From a bacterium BMS3Abin02 (GTDB lineage: Bacteria > Actinomycetota > Acidimicrobiia > Spongiisociales > UBA4744), in the NCBI GenBank assembly GCA_002897675.1, contig BDSU01000003.1:19449-83448 (forward strand): 64,000 nt of DNA, in the 5' to 3' direction. Position 1 is the first letter of the stretch. Each line of letters starts with the position of its first letter. The position numbers were made by a program, and so were the translations under genes. Positions 27,146 to 63,396 of the stretch are shown here, piece by piece. The notes below the pieces were generated by a model. It was not told the origin of the DNA. It did no database searches and saw nothing but the letters and a program-made list of their open reading frames with translations.

Positions 27146-27445
27146 CGACGGCAGCGTAGTGCCTTTGCAGGCAAGGCTCGGAGTGTCGATGTCGAGGCAG
27201 GGCGTCGTGCCACTGCTCGTGTATTTCGTACCTTGTGTTTCGCACTTTGCATCTCGAGAACGCACAGACGGGGACGGTGGAACCGTCTCGAGGGTGTCGA
27301 AACGTCGGTCCGGCGTGGCTTTCTGCCGAGATTCACCGATGTGGCTCACCTGTACGTTGATCCGCTTCATGCTTCGTATCGCGACTTGCCCGACAGAAGG
27401 GCGCAAAGGTTCTCTGTCGAGGCATCGATGCGGGGAGTAGGGGCT

Positions 27446-28684
27446 TCAGGCCGGCTGGTCGTACTCTGCGACGTTGAGGGCAGACCAGACGACGGTGCGA
27501 GAGAGATACACGGCGAAGAGGACGATGAGGACCGGTCCGAGCCGGACGATCGTCAGCAGGCCGATACGATCGGCCAGGGCCGTGCCGAACAGGGCGCCGA
27601 ATGGGACCGTGCTCCAGGCCAGGCCGCGTCCGGCGGCGCTGACTCTCCCGAGCAGATGCTGCGGAGTGTAGAGCTGGCGCATCGTGAGGAGACTCACATT
27701 GGCCCACACGAGCCCGGCGAAACCCACCGCCAGGATGCTGGTAACGACCAGCAGGTTGCTCGACCAGGTCAGGCCGAACATTCCGAGGCCAAAGATCGCG
27801 AATCCGAACACGTACGTGCGGCCGATCTGGATGCGGCCGATGACTTTCGAAACGCTGATCGCTCCAATGATGCCACCGGCACCCATTCCGACGAAGAAGA
27901 TCCCGAGTCGAGCCGGATCGTCCGTCCCGAGAAGCTGAGCTCCGATGAGCACGAGCGTTGCCTCGATGAAGCCGGTGACGAAGTTGGCCAGACCTCCACC
28001 AAGGGTGGTCAGGCGGATTCTGTGTTCGGACCACAGGTGCGCCCATCCTTCCCGCAGGTTTTCGAAGAAATGATCGCCGGGAATGAGGGCGCGCTTAGGA
28101 AGGCGAGACAGATACATGAACGACAAGGCCGACACGAGGAATGTCATCCCGTTGAAGGCGAACGCGACGGAGAAGCCGGCGCCCTTCACGATCAGTCCGC
28201 CGGTGAGAGGTCCGAGCAGGAAAGCGATCTGTTGAGAAAGTGAGAGGCGTCCGTTTGCTCGAGTCAAACCCAGTCCGGCAGCTATCGACGGGATGAACGC
28301 CTGCAAAGAGGCGTTGAATGAAGCGGCGAGACTTCCCGCGATGAACGCAAACGCGAAGAGACCCCATGTCGTAAATGTGCCGCCACGAACCATGATGGCA
28401 AGTGAGAAGAACGCGGCGGCTCGCGCCAACTCGTTGCTGACGATGATCCATCGCAGCCGGTATCGATCCAACAGCGTTGCGCCGACAAAACCGAAGATCA
28501 GCGTGGGGAGGTTCTCGGCAGCAGACAGGATGCCGAAGGCGAACGCCCGCTGCGAAAGCTCGGCGAGAAAGAGTGGGACCGTCAGGTACGCGACGTAGTC
28601 GCCAAACAGTGAAACTGTCTGTCCGGTCCATACGATCGAGAAGTTCCGGGCAGGCGGAACCCTCCTGTGCGTGCCTTGGCTCAC
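27446..28684 (-). CDS. MFS transporter
   Basis: 412 aa with 12 TM segments and an MFS motif region (…GATLLDRYRLRW…). Confidence 0.85.
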   Translation of the reverse strand: MSQGTHRRVPPARNFSIVWTGQTVSLFGDYVAYLTVPLFLAELSQRAFAFGILSAAENLPTLIFGFVGATLLDRYRLRWIIVSNELARAAAFFSLAIMVRGGTFTTWGLFAFAFIAGSLAASFNASLQAFIPSIAAGLGLTRANGRLSLSQQIAFLLGPLTGGLIVKGAGFSVAFAFNGMTFLVSALSFMYLSRLPKRALIPGDHFFENLREGWAHLWSEHRIRLTTLGGGLANFVTGFIEATLVLIGAQLLGTDDPARLGIFFVGMGAGGIIGAISVSKVIGRIQIGRTYVFGFAIFGLGMFGLTWSSNLLVVTSILAVGFAGLVWANVSLLTMRQLYTPQHLLGRVSAAGRGLAWSTVPFGALFGTALADRIGLLTIVRLGPVLIVLFAVYLSRTVVWSALNVAEYDQPA

Positions 28685-28744
28685 GATTCACCAGCCTAGT
28701 GGCGGACCCACATACGATGCCTGGATCTGGTGAATGATGGAGGC

Positions 28745-28995
28745 ACCTCGTACCTCGCACTTCGTGTTTCGTATCGCGGCCTCAGGTCGGTGCACGACCG
28801 CGGGCCGGCCTCTATTGGTCCCCCCCAGGGAGCGAAGCGACCGCAGGGGGGAAAGTACCGCAGCGGCTTTGCGCCGGGGTAACGGGGTTCTTCCCCAAGG
28901 GAGCGAAGCGGCCTGTTTCTCCCCAGCGAGCAAAGCGAGCGTTGGGGAAGTACGGCGAAGCCGGAAAGGAGATCGGCGAAGCCGGAAAAGGGAGG
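28745..28995. repeat. composite GC-rich intergenic repeat element, copy A (minus orientation relative to copy B)
   Basis: 28812-28887 (ctattggtcccccccagggagcgaagcgaccgcaggggggaaagtaccgcagcggctttgcgccggggtaacgggg) is near-identical to the reverse complement of 41414-41490. Degenerate sub-repeats follow. The flank 28745-28811 matches the reverse complement of 41491-41560. Confidence 0.6.
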
Positions 28996-29194
28996 AAACT
29001 ACGGCGGTCGCTTCGAGTCGGGGTAAGGAGATCAGGGCCTCAGAGAGTGCGCTTCGGGGTTCACGTTCGATGCGGTGTGACCCGGTCGAAGAGGGCGCCT
29101 CGTTCGGCTCTCGGGGATCTTCCGTGCCTGAGAAGCGCACTCCAAGGAATTGATTCGCCTATGAATCGGGCGCTCGGGTAGCCTCGGTGGCGTC

Positions 29195-29488
29195 ATGAGC
29201 GATGTAAGCGAGATCCCCGAACAGGTCGGAGAGCTGATCGACCTGTCCAAGCAATACCTGCGGGAGCAGACCATCGAGCCGGCGAAGCGGCTCGGAAGGG
29301 TCGCGGGGATGGGTCTGGGCGCCGCGGTATTGTTCTCCATCGGGGCGCTTCTCCTTGCCGTCGCCGGAACGAGGTCGCTGATCCGCGTCCTTCCGGATGG
29401 CGACCTGTGGAGTGCGCTTGGTCTGTTCATCTCCGCCATCGTCCTTTCCGGAATCGCCGGTCTGATCATGTGGAGGGCAACGCGCTGA
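29195..29488 (+). CDS. holin-like small membrane protein (actinobacterial 'phage holin' superfamily-like, 2 TM)
   Basis: 97 aa with two hydrophobic helices (GLGAAVLFSIGALLLAVAG and LGLFISAIVLSGIAGLIMW). Confidence 0.45.
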   Translation: MSDVSEIPEQVGELIDLSKQYLREQTIEPAKRLGRVAGMGLGAAVLFSIGALLLAVAGTRSLIRVLPDGDLWSALGLFISAIVLSGIAGLIMWRATR

Positions 29489-37174: not shown

Positions 37175-37484
37175 GCTTCTGCCCGCGAGCGATGCCGGTG
37201 CGTGGATCGAGGTGGCTCACTTCGTTCACCGTACCTGGTGCTTCGGCCGATTCGAGCGGTGGACGTGACATCTGACCTGTGGGAAGTTGTGATGGGAGGC
37301 CCGAGGAGTTCGCGGTCGGCGGTGGGGTGGATGGGATCGCTGTGGACACAGCGCAACGGCCTCGCGTGAATCGGGGGTCCGAATCGGTGGCCGGTCACCG
37401 GTCGGTACCTATCGGTTCGAAGCCCGTGGGCGCGTGCCATGCCTTGCTCGGCGGGCTCCCGCCCACGGGGTCTACGCTGAAGCG

Positions 37485-38840: not shown

Positions 38841-39109
38841 AGCGGTGCATCCTCAGGATCGTGACGTGACGTGGCTCGAGTTTCGAGCACGACACGTTGG
38901 AGATGATGACGGGTTGCCGTCAGGTTGGCGTTCTCGGGACTCGAGTCAGCGGCCTGTTGCGGTGTGACCTCGACTCGGGGTTTTCATGTGGTCGACGTCA
39001 AACGAGGCAAGTGGCGACGTTCGTCGAGATGCGTGCCGTGCGTTGCCCGGCGAACTCAGGTGCCAAGGGCCTGGTACGGCGAGCGTACGGGGCCTACAGT
39101 TGCTACCGC

Positions 39110-41015: not shown

Positions 41016-41315
41016 ATGACCACTATCAAGACGACGTGTGAGCACTGCGGGGACATTGAACTGCACCCGGATGACCTCGCCCTCGAGCTGGATCCGACCG
41101 AAGATTCGGGCAGCTACCTCTTCACGTGCCCGGCGTGCGGAAACCTTCAACGCCGACCGGCGAATCCCCGAGTCGTGAACGTGCTCCTCGCTACCGGTGT
41201 CACGTATGACGTAGTCGTTCCCGAACCCGGGCCGATCACCACCGAGGAAATCGACCGGTTCGTGCGCGCACTCGACAGGGAAGAGGATCTCTGGAGGATG
41301 CTTCCCTCGTCGTAG
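41016..41315 (+). CDS. hypothetical small zinc-ribbon protein
   Basis: 99 aa, CEHCGD…CPACGN. Confidence 0.4.
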   Translation: MTTIKTTCEHCGDIELHPDDLALELDPTEDSGSYLFTCPACGNLQRRPANPRVVNVLLATGVTYDVVVPEPGPITTEEIDRFVRALDREEDLWRMLPSS

Positions 41316-41339
41316 GAACCCGGCGAGTACTGCGAAACG

Positions 41340-41585
41340 CCAATCCCCCTACCCCGGCCCAAAGCCACTGCGGTACCTTCCCCCCTGCGGTCGCTTCGCT
41401 CCCTGGGCAAGAGCCCCCCTACCCCAGCGCAAAGCCGCTGCGGTACCTTCCCCCCTGCGGTCGCTTCGCTCCCTGGGGGGGACCAATAGACGCTTGCCCC
41501 GCGGTCCTGCACTGCTGCCACGTCGCGATAGGAAGCACGAAATACGAAGCACCAAATGCCGCATACGAAATACGATGGGCAAAGC
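41340..41585. repeat. composite GC-rich intergenic repeat element, copy B (two tandem units of about 66 bp plus a shared flank)
   Basis: Units at 41345-41406 and 41414-41479 (…cccctacccc[g/a]gc[c/g]caaagcc[a/g]ctgcggtaccttcccccctgcggtcgcttcgctccctggg…). The flank 41480-41560 is homologous to the reverse complement of 28745-28811. Confidence 0.6.
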
Positions 41586-41606
41586 GAGTCCTAACATGGG
41601 AATGCC

Positions 41607-42035
41607 GTGTTTTTCGATGTCAGCCCCACCGAACTCCTTTTCATCTTCCTTGTTGCACTCGTCGTGTTCGGTCCGCGGCGCCTGCCGGAAATGGCGAAGA
41701 AGATCGCCTCGCTGGTCCGCGAGATCCAATCAACGGCCGGGGACCTCCAGCGGGGCCTCGAAAAAGAAGTGAAAGACTTGGCGGCACCGCTCAAAGATCT
41801 GGCAGAGCCTCTGAAGGAACTCTCACAGCCGGTCAGGGACCTCACCAAGCCGCTGAAGGACCTCACCAAGCCGCTGGAGGACCTCACCAAGCCGCTGGAG
41901 GACCTCACCAAGCCGCTGGAGGACCTCGCCACCAAGCCGGTGAACGACTCGAGGGACGAAGACGCGACGGGGGACGCTTCACCCGCGCAGGAGGACAGCG
42001 ACGTCGCGTCGAACGATCGGCCTGCGGATGAGTAA
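41607..42035 (+). CDS. tatA: twin-arginine translocase TatA/E-family protein with a long repetitive acidic C-terminal tail
   Basis: GTG start. TM plus amphipathic helix (LFIFLVALVVFGPRRLPEMAKK), followed by the (DL[TA]KPL[KE])n tail. Confidence 0.8.
   Translation: MFFDVSPTELLFIFLVALVVFGPRRLPEMAKKIASLVREIQSTAGDLQRGLEKEVKDLAAPLKDLAEPLKELSQPVRDLTKPLKDLTKPLEDLTKPLEDLTKPLEDLATKPVNDSRDEDATGDASPAQEDSDVASNDRPADE
41837..41920 (+). repeat. four perfect tandem copies of a 21-bp unit (gacctcaccaagccgctgRag) inside tatA, encoding DLTKPLE/K heptads
   Basis: Direct reading of 41837-41920. Diverged copies flank it, spanning about 41774-41941. Confidence 0.7.
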
Positions 42036-63181: not shown

Positions 63182-63289
63182 TGCGGGTGCGAGGATCGAC
63201 GGGCGCCATCGAGATGCCATACCCCCTTCGACCTCGACCAAGACCCCGAGACCACCTCTCCCGGCGTCGGCCCTGAGGGCTCCTCCCAG

Positions 63290-63365
63290 GGGAGGAAACG
63301 GCGCTCGCTGGGGAAGAAACAGGCCGGGAGGGAGGCCGACGCCGGCCGGAGGGGGAGTACGGCAA
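63290..63365. repeat. degenerate relative of the 28.8/41.4-kb repeat family, upstream of cmk
   Basis: ggcgctcgctggggaagaaacaggccg is close to the reverse complement of 28909-28933. gggggagtacggcaaagccgg is close to ggggaagtacggcgaagccgg at 28945-28965. Confidence 0.35.
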
Positions 63366-63396
63366 AGCCGGCCCAGCCACTAGGGTTGCCCCGCCA

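What the first reader, a model, noticed from the sequence alone, without database searches (positions are those of the whole stretch)
28745..28995. Composite GC-rich repeat element present upstream of two unrelated genes in the same orientation relative to each gene (MFS at 28.7 kb, tatA at 41.6 kb), with a degenerate third relative at 63.3 kb
28745-28995 and 41340-41585 are reverse complements of each other over about 150 nt. They share a roughly 66-bp unit (…ccccctacccc.gc.caaagcc.ctgcggtaccttcccccctgcggtcgcttcgctccctggg…), which is duplicated in tandem at 41.4 kb and degenerate-repeated at 28.9 kb. They also share a roughly 70-bp flank (gaccaataga…gcgata.gaa.cacgaa.t.cg…).

The MFS gene is on the minus strand and tatA on the plus strand. 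In both cases the shared flank end therefore points at the start codon of the downstream gene, about 60 and about 45 nt away. That is the arrangement expected for a mobile or duplicated promoter or 5'-UTR module (a MITE-like element or shared regulatory leader), not a random REP.

Fragments of the same motif (ggggRAgtacggcRaagccgg) recur ahead of cmk at 63290-63365.
Basis: seen in the sequence. Interest (0 to 1): 0.55.

Follow-up and report, generated by a model that had tools for sequence, protein, structure and literature searches.

The report
Modular GC-rich intergenic repeat arrays
The two look-alike stretches in front of the MFS transporter gene and tatA are real copies of an undescribed family of short, GC-rich, tandemly stacking intergenic repeats in uncultured marine Acidimicrobiia; they were inserted recently and change copy number between strains, but nothing shows that they act as a promoter.

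Summary
A 70-nt unit plus junction is 94% identical between the two loci, and the following flank is 70% identical. The aroA-cmk spacer (63277-63377) is a true degenerate relative.

Comparison with other assemblies shows what the element is.
- Three to four outgroup lineages have compact "empty" spacers: 18-38 bp before tatA and about 100 bp between holin and MFS. Both copies are therefore lineage-specific insertions.
- Near-identical strains differ in module number: 2 vs 3 units at tatA, and 1 vs 2 copies of a 21-nt and a 70-nt module at MFS.
- A sister species (about 86% nt identity) has only the flank at MFS. It carries a related array at a different site (prcA-pafA) in the opposite orientation.

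The arrays are built from about 20-45-nt modules: a C/G run plus a tiny GC stem with a GAA/AAA loop.

I found no Rfam hit, no sigma-70 or terminator consensus, no terminal inverted repeats at tatA, no unusual RNA stability and no transposase in about 78 kb.

Best reading: a new BOX/MIRU/BIME-like modular interspersed minisatellite family. The "same orientation towards the gene" argument rests on n=2, and one of those loci is a divergent spacer. A promoter or leader function is neither supported nor excluded. No whole-genome census was possible.

The parts
41347..41484 (+). Two tandem 70-nt units (about 41345-41414 and 41415-41484). The C-rich strand is the tatA sense strand. Each unit is a C-run, then GCGCAAAGCCGCTGCGGTAC, then a C-run, then TGCGGTCGCTTCGCTCCCTGGG.
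   Evidence: TRF period 70, 1.9 copies, 95% matches. nhmmer E about 1e-20. Other assemblies of the same species have 3 units (L007, L009) or carry SNPs or a 2-nt deletion in the first half of a unit.
41478..41590 (+). Flank module, tatA copy. It consists of the GGGGGGGACCAATAGA junction, the box CCGCGGTCCTGCAC (41499-41512), then about 7-nt repeats of the RYACGAA type (41525-41577), ending just before the conserved CCTAACATG that precedes the tatA GTG.
   Evidence: Alignments. Heptad pattern found 6 times in the window against 0.07 expected, 5 of them in the two flank copies and 1 at the EamA start. The whole of 41347-41590 is absent from three outgroup lineages, whose spacer is 18-38 bp.
28745..28820 (-). 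Flank module, MFS copy. It consists of heptads ATACGAA/ACACGAA/GTGCGAG/GTACGAG (28745-28778), the box CCGCGGTCGTGCAC (28790-28803) and GACCAATAGA (28811-28820).
   Evidence: 70% identical to the tatA flank. Present at the orthologous site in the sister species without the 70-nt unit (L032 9850-9935). Absent in L034 and L051.
28821..28889 (-). Single 70-nt unit, 59/63 identical to tatA unit B.
   Evidence: The unit is duplicated, with an extra 17-nt duplication, in strains L016/L017.
28890..29037 (+). Degenerate array of smaller modules (G-rich strand on +). There are two CCCCAxGGAGCRAAGCG-type modules (28893-28940), two GGCGAAGCCGG modules with 21-nt period (28944-28985), and one inverted core GCGGTCGCTTCG (29004-29015).
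   Evidence: D13. The 21-nt module is present once or twice in different strains. 28887-29006 aligns with the sister species' prcA-pafA array, score 123 against a null maximum of 28.
63277..63377 (+). Degenerate single-copy relative in the aroA-cmk spacer. The G-rich strand is the sense strand, the opposite orientation to tatA. It has no flank module.
   Evidence: Identical in 8 assemblies of the species, with no copy-number variation.
27371..27390 (-). Flank-like fragment GTCGCGATACGAAGCATGAA (18/20 identical to the tatA flank), abutting and running into the ATG of the EamA transporter gene. Membership is uncertain.
   Evidence: nhmmer E=0.063. Absent from the sister species and outgroups.

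Best explanation
These are copies of an undescribed, lineage-restricted family of modular GC-rich interspersed repeats in an uncultured marine Acidimicrobiia genus. They behave like a bacterial minisatellite.

Building blocks. The modules are 20-45 nt long. Each has a run of C (or G) followed by a short GC-rich segment, often a 3-5-bp stem closed by a GAA/AAA (TTC/TTT) loop. The core is GGAGCGAAGCGACC or GGCGAAGCCGG. Modules stack head to tail, and sometimes inverted, into arrays such as the 70-nt unit.

Shown:
- The arrays sit only in intergenic spacers.
- They are insertions relative to outgroups.
- They occupy different spacers in sister species.
- They gain and lose modules between near-identical strains.

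Inferred:
- Arrays expand and contract by replication slippage or unequal recombination.
- They reach new spacers, or are homogenised between spacers, by recombination or gene conversion, or by an unidentified trans-acting enzyme.

The tatA and MFS copies additionally share an older, about 100-nt 'flank' module: a CCGCGGTCnYGCAC box plus 7-nt ACGAA repeats. This flank was already at both sites in the common ancestor of the two species. The 94%-identical unit plus junction next to a 70%-identical flank indicates a much more recent copying or conversion event between the two loci.

The most likely effect on the cell is slight. The arrays are probably tolerated, transcribed-through spacer DNA inside or in front of operons, with at most a modulating effect on expression.
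For: 1. Real and non-random repeats.
2. Empty sites. The orf99-tatA spacer is 38, 38 and 18 bp in lineages with 84, 83 and 79% TatC identity, and ends in the same CCTAACATG as the window. The holin-MFS spacer is about 100 bp in the 77% and 81% MFS lineages, against 510 bp here.
3. Strain polymorphism confined to the arrays, with nearly identical flanking DNA. At least 9 contigs end inside the arrays. One scaffold has an N-gap inside an array.
4. Different occupancy in the sister species (about 86% nt identity). It has the flank only at MFS, a degenerate unit plus flank at tatA, and a large array (29-nt x3 plus 45-nt x2.5) between prcA and pafA, where the window has unrelated sequence.
5. Significant cross-locus alignments.
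6. Both orientations occur.
7. Step in paralogue identity, 74/79 against 45/64.
8. The flank evolves at roughly the four-fold-site rate: 0.66-0.77 against 0.57-0.69.
9. No Rfam, promoter, terminator or G4 signal, and no unusual folding energy.
Against: - No genome-wide census was possible. Only about 78 kb of this species and about 35 kb of the sister were readable, so copy number (3 loci here) and the positional or orientation distribution are unknown.
- The flank occurs only at two gene-proximal sites. It keeps an invariant 12/14-nt box across two paralogues and two species. That hints at function and fits a regulatory cassette better than junk DNA.
- The hairpins are tiny, with no compensatory changes observed.
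- The mechanism of spread is not demonstrated. No transposase or RAYT appears among called genes in the region.
- Some of the copy-number differences could be short-read collapse of tandem repeats. However, the variants recur in independent assemblies with distinct SNPs.
Confidence: 0.65

Rival explanations
1. Portable promoter or 5'-leader cassette. The flank, with or without the units, is a mobile regulatory module. It supplies a promoter or leader to tatA(C) and to the MFS gene. Array copy number might tune expression.
For: - Both flank copies lie 47-60 nt upstream of a start codon in the same polarity.
- The insertion split a formerly compact, probably translationally coupled orf99-tatA junction. 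tatAC would need read-through or a new promoter.
- The box CCGCGGTCnYGCAC, and a TAnGAA element 16 nt downstream of its GCAC core, are invariant in 4 sequences. The rest of the flank drifts at a near-neutral rate.
- A 20-nt flank-like fragment also abuts the EamA start.
- BOX boxA/boxC elements are reported to stimulate downstream genes (PMC3049150).
Against: - n=2, and one site is a divergent spacer.
- No sigma-70-like -35/-10 pair is found. TAnGAA lacks the final T of actinobacterial -10 boxes (own knowledge).
- Overall flank divergence is close to neutral.
- No expression data exist.
- Related arrays at cmk and at the sister species' pafA lack the flank and are inverted.
Confidence: 0.17
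2. True REP/REPIN-type elements mobilised by a RAYT (IS200/IS605-like Y1 transposase) encoded elsewhere in the genome. The 70-nt unit would be an inverted doublet of two REP-like modules.
For: - Modules are short GC-rich near-palindromes, often preceded by GTAC/CTAC/GATC (GTACGGCGAAGCCGG, CTACGGCGGTCGC).
- The two halves of the unit are imperfect inverted copies (12/18 by eye).
- The MFS array is bracketed by inverted 12-nt cores.
- An unrelated metagenome contig carries the same 21-mer on both arms of an inverted-repeat structure spanning about 380 nt.
- The arrays are mosaic clusters in alternating orientation, like BIMEs (own knowledge).
Against: - No RAYT or transposase appears among called genes in about 78 kb.
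- Stems are only 3-5 bp.
- Folding energies are not better than shuffles (z = 0.66 and -1.12).
- The exact 21-mer is nearly absent from 185,579 species genomes (3 hits, about the chance level for high-GC DNA).
- The copy number expected of REPs (hundreds) is not shown.
Confidence: 0.1
3. A structured cis-regulatory RNA or small RNA (riboswitch-like leader) shared by tatA and MFS.
For: Position in the putative 5' UTRs. Sequence blocks are conserved across paralogues and species.
Against: - No Rfam hit at E<=1.
- RNAalifold gives only 7 pairs with no compensatory change and -5 kcal/mol.
- MFE z-scores are not significant.
- Copy number varies between strains, and the element is absent from close outgroups.
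Confidence: 0.04
4. G-quadruplex or i-motif forming tracts that act through DNA or RNA structure.
For: G/C runs of 4-7 nt recur every 20-35 nt throughout the arrays.
Against: No canonical quadruplex motif with loops <=12 nt lies in the unit or module arrays. One loop<=12 hit overlaps the left edge of the aroA-cmk spacer (63244-63287). Otherwise only long-loop (<=25 nt) patterns occur, and these are common in this 63% GC window (52 hits).
Confidence: 0.04

Closest known systems
BOX elements of Streptococcus pneumoniae / S. suis (boxA-boxB(n)-boxC)
   Same: Both are composite intergenic repeats in which a tandem module varies in number between strains and is flanked by non-repeated end modules. 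Size is variable (67-637 bp for BOX). Both insert into or next to operons, have ORF-free reading frames on both strands, and have disputed regulatory effects (PMC3049150). Here the layout is left part - 70-nt unit (2-3 copies) - flank at tatA.
   Different: No sequence similarity. The element is GC-rich and comes from a different phylum. There are no terminal inverted repeats between the end modules at tatA. Target-site duplication is not established. The flank is seen at only two loci. Arrays also occur without any end module (cmk, and the sister species' prcA-pafA).
MIRU / VNTR minisatellites of Mycobacterium tuberculosis
   Same: Both occur in an actinobacterial host. Both are 40-100-bp direct tandem repeats located mainly in intergenic regions, including inside operons. 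Both are dispersed over many loci, and copy number is polymorphic among strains (PMC5056196). Here the 70-nt period lies inside the paf-tat gene string and is polymorphic.
   Different: MIRUs have one orientation relative to the adjacent gene, contain small ORFs and lack obvious palindromes (PMC5056196). Here both orientations occur, 70 is not a multiple of 3, and the modules contain short inverted segments. No sequence similarity was tested or is expected.
REP / BIME / REPIN elements with RAYT transposases (Proteobacteria)
   Same: Both are short GC-rich extragenic near-palindromes assembled into mosaic clusters in alternating orientation. Occupancy varies between related genomes (own knowledge of Gilson 1991, Nunvar 2010, Bertels & Rainey 2011).
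   Different: No RAYT was found in the sampled region. Stems are much shorter. High copy number is not demonstrated. The tandem 70-nt periodicity and the non-repeated flank are not REP features.
MITEs such as Correia/CREE elements of Neisseria
   Same: Both are small non-coding insertions close to gene starts that can carry promoter or processing signals (own knowledge).
   Different: MITEs have a fixed length, terminal inverted repeats and a target-site duplication. Here there are no TIRs at tatA, length is variable, and there is only a tentative CCTA duplication.

Membership tests
MITE | Terminal inverted repeats at both ends of the inserted segment | tested here: not met
   No inverted repeat >=10 nt in 41300-41620. 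At the MFS locus, only 12-nt inverted module cores (28833-44 / 29004-15) bracket the array, not the whole insertion.
MITE | Target-site duplication seen by comparing filled and empty sites | tested here: inconclusive
   The empty site in L028/L045 reads ...CCCATC CCTA ACATG. The filled site reads ...AATCC CCTA [CCCC...GAGT] CCTA ACATG. A CCTA duplication is possible, but this is one site, in C-rich sequence, across about 28% nucleotide divergence.
MITE | Uniform unit length across copies | tested here: not met
   Insert sizes differ between loci and between strains.
REP/REPIN-RAYT | 20-40-nt imperfect palindrome able to form a stable hairpin | tested here: inconclusive
   Only 3-5-bp stems with GAA/AAA loops. 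Folding energies of the elements are not better than shuffles (z 0.66 and -1.12).
REP/REPIN-RAYT | Conserved 5' GT[AG]G-type tetranucleotide next to the palindrome | tested here: inconclusive
   GTAC, CTAC or GATC precede the GGCGAAGCCGG / GGCGGTCGC modules. None is the canonical GTAG.
REP/REPIN-RAYT | Associated RAYT (Y1 transposase) gene | not testable with these tools
   No transposase among called genes over about 78 kb. The rest of the genome could not be fetched.
REP/REPIN-RAYT | Tens to hundreds of extragenic copies per genome | not testable with these tools
   3 array loci in about 78 kb. The source genome is not in the scanned collections. A census in protein space found nothing.
BOX-type composite repeat | End modules flanking a tandem module of variable number | tested here: met
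   tatA locus: left part, then 70-nt unit x2 or x3, then flank. MFS locus: 21-nt and 70-nt modules x1 or x2. This is an architectural analogy only.
BOX-type composite repeat | Complementary (TIR-like) boxA and boxC ends; homology to BOX | tested here: not met
   No inverted repeat between the ends. The composition and the sequence are unrelated.
MIRU-VNTR | 40-100-bp direct tandem repeats in intergenic regions, polymorphic in copy number | tested here: met
   Period 70. 2 vs 3 copies among assemblies. 1 vs 2 copies at MFS.
MIRU-VNTR | Single orientation relative to adjacent gene; small ORFs overlapping the flanking genes' stop and start | tested here: not met
   Both orientations occur (tatA against cmk and the sister species' pafA). 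70 nt is not a multiple of 3. The insert starts 31 nt after the orf99 stop and ends 16 nt before the tatA start.
Sigma-70-type promoter | -35 and -10 hexamers with 16-18-nt spacing | tested here: not met
   0 promoter-like sites in 28600-29250 and in 41250-41700. Other promoter types are not covered by the scan.
Any Rfam RNA family | Covariance-model match | tested here: not met
   0 hits at gathering threshold in the window. 0 hits at E<=1 in either element.

The most novel reading that the evidence does not exclude
The flank (CCGCGGTCnYGCAC box plus ACGAA heptads) is a portable regulatory cassette that re-wired expression of tatAC and of an MFS exporter in this lineage. The adjacent hypervariable arrays would act as a copy-number 'rheostat', a contingency locus in a free-living marine actinobacterium.
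Probability: 0.12. Interest if true: 0.55.

Novelty: new member of a known kind. Interest (0 to 1): 0.3.

Why it matters
Interspersed modular repeats are well studied in a few pathogens (BOX, MIRU, REP/BIME, Correia). They are essentially undescribed in uncultured marine Acidimicrobiia.

This family matters in three ways:
- It explains why assemblies of this lineage break at these spacers.
- It offers a VNTR-like strain marker for metagenomic populations.
- It shows insertions splitting a conserved, tightly packed paf-tat gene string.

If the flank proved to carry a promoter, it would be an example of operon re-wiring by a small mobile cassette. On present evidence the element is an ordinary, if new, repeat family.

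Tried and rejected
1. Whole-collection scans with the 21-mer GCGGTCGCTTCGCTCCCTGGG. There were 3 hits in 185,579 species genomes and 2 in metagenome contigs. None came from the source genome, and the count is near the chance level for high-GC DNA. Only L002 and L005 share wider context. No census was possible.

2. Census in protein space, using a synthetic query of the unit translated in sense and antisense frames. There were 424 word candidates and none with E<=10.

3. Viral contigs. There were 0 hits for the 21-mer. The 2 hits for GGGGARTACGGCRMAGCCGG lie in coding sequence and are chance matches. There was no match in plasmids or phages.

4. Rfam at gathering threshold and at E<=1: nothing.

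5. RNA structure. MFE z-scores are 0.66 and -1.12. RNAalifold on four flanks gave 7 pairs with no covariation.

6. Promoter and terminator scans: 0 sites.

7. G-quadruplex scan: no canonical motif in the unit or module arrays.

8. Terminal inverted repeats at tatA: none.

9. Other long spacers of the window (37196-37432 and 38843-39018) were read and are not of this family.

10. Extending the window by 5 kb to the left and 10 kb to the right gave no further copies.

11. Assembly artefact was rejected. The elements recur in independent assemblies from several samples.

Full report
OBSERVATION

The window is 62.7% GC. It carries a Pup-proteasome / pafABC / tatAC gene string typical of Actinomycetota. 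Its relatives are labelled Acidimicrobiia.

The reported match is real.
- The repeat finder gives inverted arms 28802-28900 / 41401-41499 (99 nt, 90%) and 28824-28889 / 41342-41407 (66 nt, 91%). All other inverted pairs in the window are at most 33 nt.
- MAFFT extends the homology to about 160 nt.
- TRF finds a 70-nt period with 1.9 copies and 95% matches at 41345-41477.
- The 23-mer CTGCGGTCGCTTCGCTCCCTGGG occurs three times, against 0 expected.
- Block identities are 74/79 for unit plus junction (…GGGGGGGACCAATAGA) and 45/64 for the flank that follows. The flank match exceeds shuffles: 48 matches against 38.8 +/- 2.1.

MFS is at 27446-28684 (-) and tatA starts with GTG at 41607 (+). One correction is needed. 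The 28.7-29.2-kb spacer is divergent, with a holin-X-like gene starting at 29195 (+). The element there is therefore upstream of two genes.

ANATOMY

Read on the C-rich strand, each 70-nt unit has four parts: a C-run, then GCGCAAAGCCGCTGCGGTAC, then a C-run, then TGCGGTCGCTTCGCTCCCTGGG.

The 28.9-29.04-kb part is a stack of smaller relatives of these halves:
- two CCCCA(A/G)(G/C)GAGC(G/A)AAGCG modules;
- two GGCGAAGCCGG modules with a 21-nt period;
- one inverted GCGGTCGCTTCG core.

The common theme is a C/G run plus a 3-5-bp GC stem around a GAA/AAA (TTC/TTT) triplet.

The flank is not repeated in tandem as a whole. It contains a box CCGCGGTCnYGCAC, followed about 16 nt later by 4-7 imperfect heptads of the type RYACGAA. 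The heptad pattern occurs 6 times in the window against 0.07 expected; 5 of these lie in the two flank copies and 1 at the EamA start.

COMPARATIVE EVIDENCE

Exact-protein look-ups retrieved the same loci from many marine-metagenome assemblies of the same species. They also retrieved a sister species at about 86% nucleotide identity and several outgroup lineages at about 72%. Four results follow.

1. Empty sites.
   - In lineages with 84, 83 and 79% TatC identity, the orf99-tatA spacer is 38, 38 and 18 bp. It ends in the same CCTAACATG that precedes the tatA GTG here.
   - Window 41347-41590 (units plus flank, 244 nt) is therefore a lineage-specific insertion into a previously compact gene junction.
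   - Likewise, the holin-MFS spacer is about 100 bp in the 77% and 81% MFS lineages. It is 247 bp in the sister species and 510 bp here.

2. Strain polymorphism. Assemblies that encode identical flanking proteins differ only inside the arrays.
   - At tatA there are 2 units (window, L006, L008, L014) or 3 units (L007, L009). SNPs or a 2-nt deletion are restricted to the first half of a unit.
   - At MFS the 21-nt module is present once or twice. The 70-nt unit is present once or twice, with a 17-nt duplication.
   - At least nine contigs terminate inside the arrays. One scaffold has an N-gap in one.
   - The single-copy, degenerate aroA-cmk spacer is invariant in 8 assemblies.
   - Short-read collapse could contribute. 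However, the alleles recur in independent assemblies with distinct SNPs.

3. Separable parts and changing occupancy.
   - The sister species has a degenerate unit plus the flank at tatA.
   - At MFS it has the flank without any 70-nt unit.
   - It has a large array between prcA and pafA: (TTTCTCCCCCCAGGGAGCGAAGCGACCTG)x3 followed by (GGGGAGTACGGCGCAGCCGGGAGGGGGGCCGGCGTCAGCCGGAAA)x2.5. The window has unrelated sequence at that position.
   - That array aligns with window 28887-29006 (score 123 against a null maximum of 28) and with the aroA-cmk spacer (59 against 34). The 63.3-kb 'third relative' is therefore genuine.

4. Orientation. The C-rich strand is the sense strand at tatA and MFS. The G-rich strand is the sense strand at cmk, at the holin gene and at the sister species' pafA. 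The arrays have no consistent polarity towards downstream genes. The flank is known from only two loci, one of them divergent, so its 'same orientation' has about an even chance under random orientation.

AGE AND CONSTRAINT

Four-fold degenerate sites are 57-69% identical between the two species. The tatA flank is 77% identical and the MFS flank 66%. The flank as a whole is therefore close to neutral.

The box CCGCGGTCnYGCAC and parts of the first heptads are nevertheless invariant in all four sequences.

The step from 94% (unit plus junction) to 70% (flank) between the window's two copies, together with the absence of the unit at the sister's MFS locus, has two possible explanations. Either the unit was recently copied or converted between the two loci, or the sister lost it. 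In either case the flank duplication is older and predates the species split.

FUNCTIONAL TESTS

- Rfam: no hit at gathering threshold in the window, and none at E<=1 in either element.
- No tRNA in the window.
- No sigma-70-like promoter and no intrinsic terminator.
- MFE z-scores are 0.66 and -1.12.
- RNAalifold on four flanks gives 7 pairs with no compensatory change.
- No canonical G-quadruplex motif lies in the unit or module arrays.
- No terminal inverted repeats at tatA.
- A CCTA target duplication is possible but rests on one site.
- No transposase appears among called genes across about 78 kb.
- No similarity to plasmids, phages or viral contigs.

CENSUS

- The source genome is not in the scannable collections. 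The 21-mer gave 3 genome hits and 2 metagenome hits, roughly the chance level for high-GC DNA. Only L002 (an Acidimicrobiia MAG, at a contig end) and L005 share wider context.
- A protein-space surrogate found nothing.
- Within the about 78 kb readable for this species there are three array loci and two flank copies, plus a 20-nt flank-like fragment at the EamA start.

INTERPRETATION

The evidence fits a new, lineage-restricted family of modular interspersed repeats that behave as bacterial minisatellites. They are confined to spacers, inserted relative to outgroups, differently distributed in sister species, and variable in module number between strains.

In architecture and behaviour they resemble three known kinds:
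- pneumococcal BOX elements, which have end modules plus a variable tandem module (PMC3049150);
- mycobacterial MIRU-VNTRs, which are 40-100-bp intergenic tandem repeats, polymorphic between strains and found in an actinobacterial host (PMC5056196);
- REP/BIME mosaics, which resemble them more loosely.

They are not members of any of these families. TIRs, single orientation, overlapping ORFs, stable palindromes and an associated transposase were each either not met or not testable.

The claim that this arrangement marks a promoter or UTR module 'rather than a REP' is not supported. It is also not excluded for the flank, whose conserved box and gene-proximal position remain unexplained. I put about 0.65 on the modular-repeat reading with little or no dedicated function, and about 0.17 on a regulatory cassette. 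The rest is divided among a bona fide REP-RAYT system, a structured RNA and a G4/i-motif.

VERDICT

This is a real feature and a new member of a known kind. Interest is modest (0.3).

Noticed in passing
window 41806-41948: The 3' part of tatA contains a 21-nt (7-aa, PLKDLTK-like) tandem repeat, 6.7 copies at 85% matches. Gene calls for tatA differ between assemblies (54+88 aa, 142 aa, 149 aa) and the sister species (112 aa). The coding repeat, or a frameshift in it, may therefore also vary between strains.
   Followed up: partly
window 27371-27390 (-), at the EamA transporter start: The 20-nt fragment GTCGCGATACGAAGCATGAA is 18/20 identical to the tatA flank and runs into the EamA ATG. The window's EamA has an N-terminal extension of about 75 aa compared with the sister species and outgroups (376 aa against about 300), which lack this fragment.
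   Followed up: partly
L025 5385-5605 (sister species, prcA-pafA spacer); L026 5427-5545: A large related array (29-nt x3 plus 45-nt x2.5) sits inside the Pup-proteasome operon of the sister species only. A second assembly of the same contig has an N-gap exactly there.
   Followed up: yes
L005 8753-9133 (metagenome contig JADMIO011694210.1): An intergenic inverted-repeat structure spanning about 380 nt (arms up to 43 nt at 91% complementarity). It is rich in CGCTCGCT motifs and carries the same GCGGTCGCTTCGCTCCCTGGG core on both arms. It may be a REPIN/MITE-like relative in an unidentified organism.
   Followed up: partly
window 29045-29055 / 29132-29142: A perfect 11-nt inverted repeat (GAGTGCGCTTC / GAAGCGCACTC), 76 nt apart, lies in the holin-proximal part of the spacer, outside the repeat arrays. 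This stretch is also absent from the sister species.
   Followed up: no
window 41590-41598 and orthologous sites in L025, L028, L045, L047: The motif CCTAACAT(G/A) lies 6-9 nt upstream of the tatA GTG and is conserved across all lineages examined despite about 28% nucleotide divergence. Its function is unknown.
   Followed up: no
sister-species records (P0001, P0121; GCA_011682695.1): The sister MAG's proteins are labelled 'Gammaproteobacteria bacterium' in NCBI. Its gene content (Pup-proteasome, pafBC) and its nearest relatives are Acidimicrobiia. The taxonomy label is probably wrong.
   Followed up: no
L037 16672-16746 (about 5.6 kb beyond the right end of the window): A tRNA gene (Rfam RF00005, 66 bits) lies in a 510-bp spacer before a pstS-like gene. 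One contig of the species (L038) ends there.
   Followed up: no
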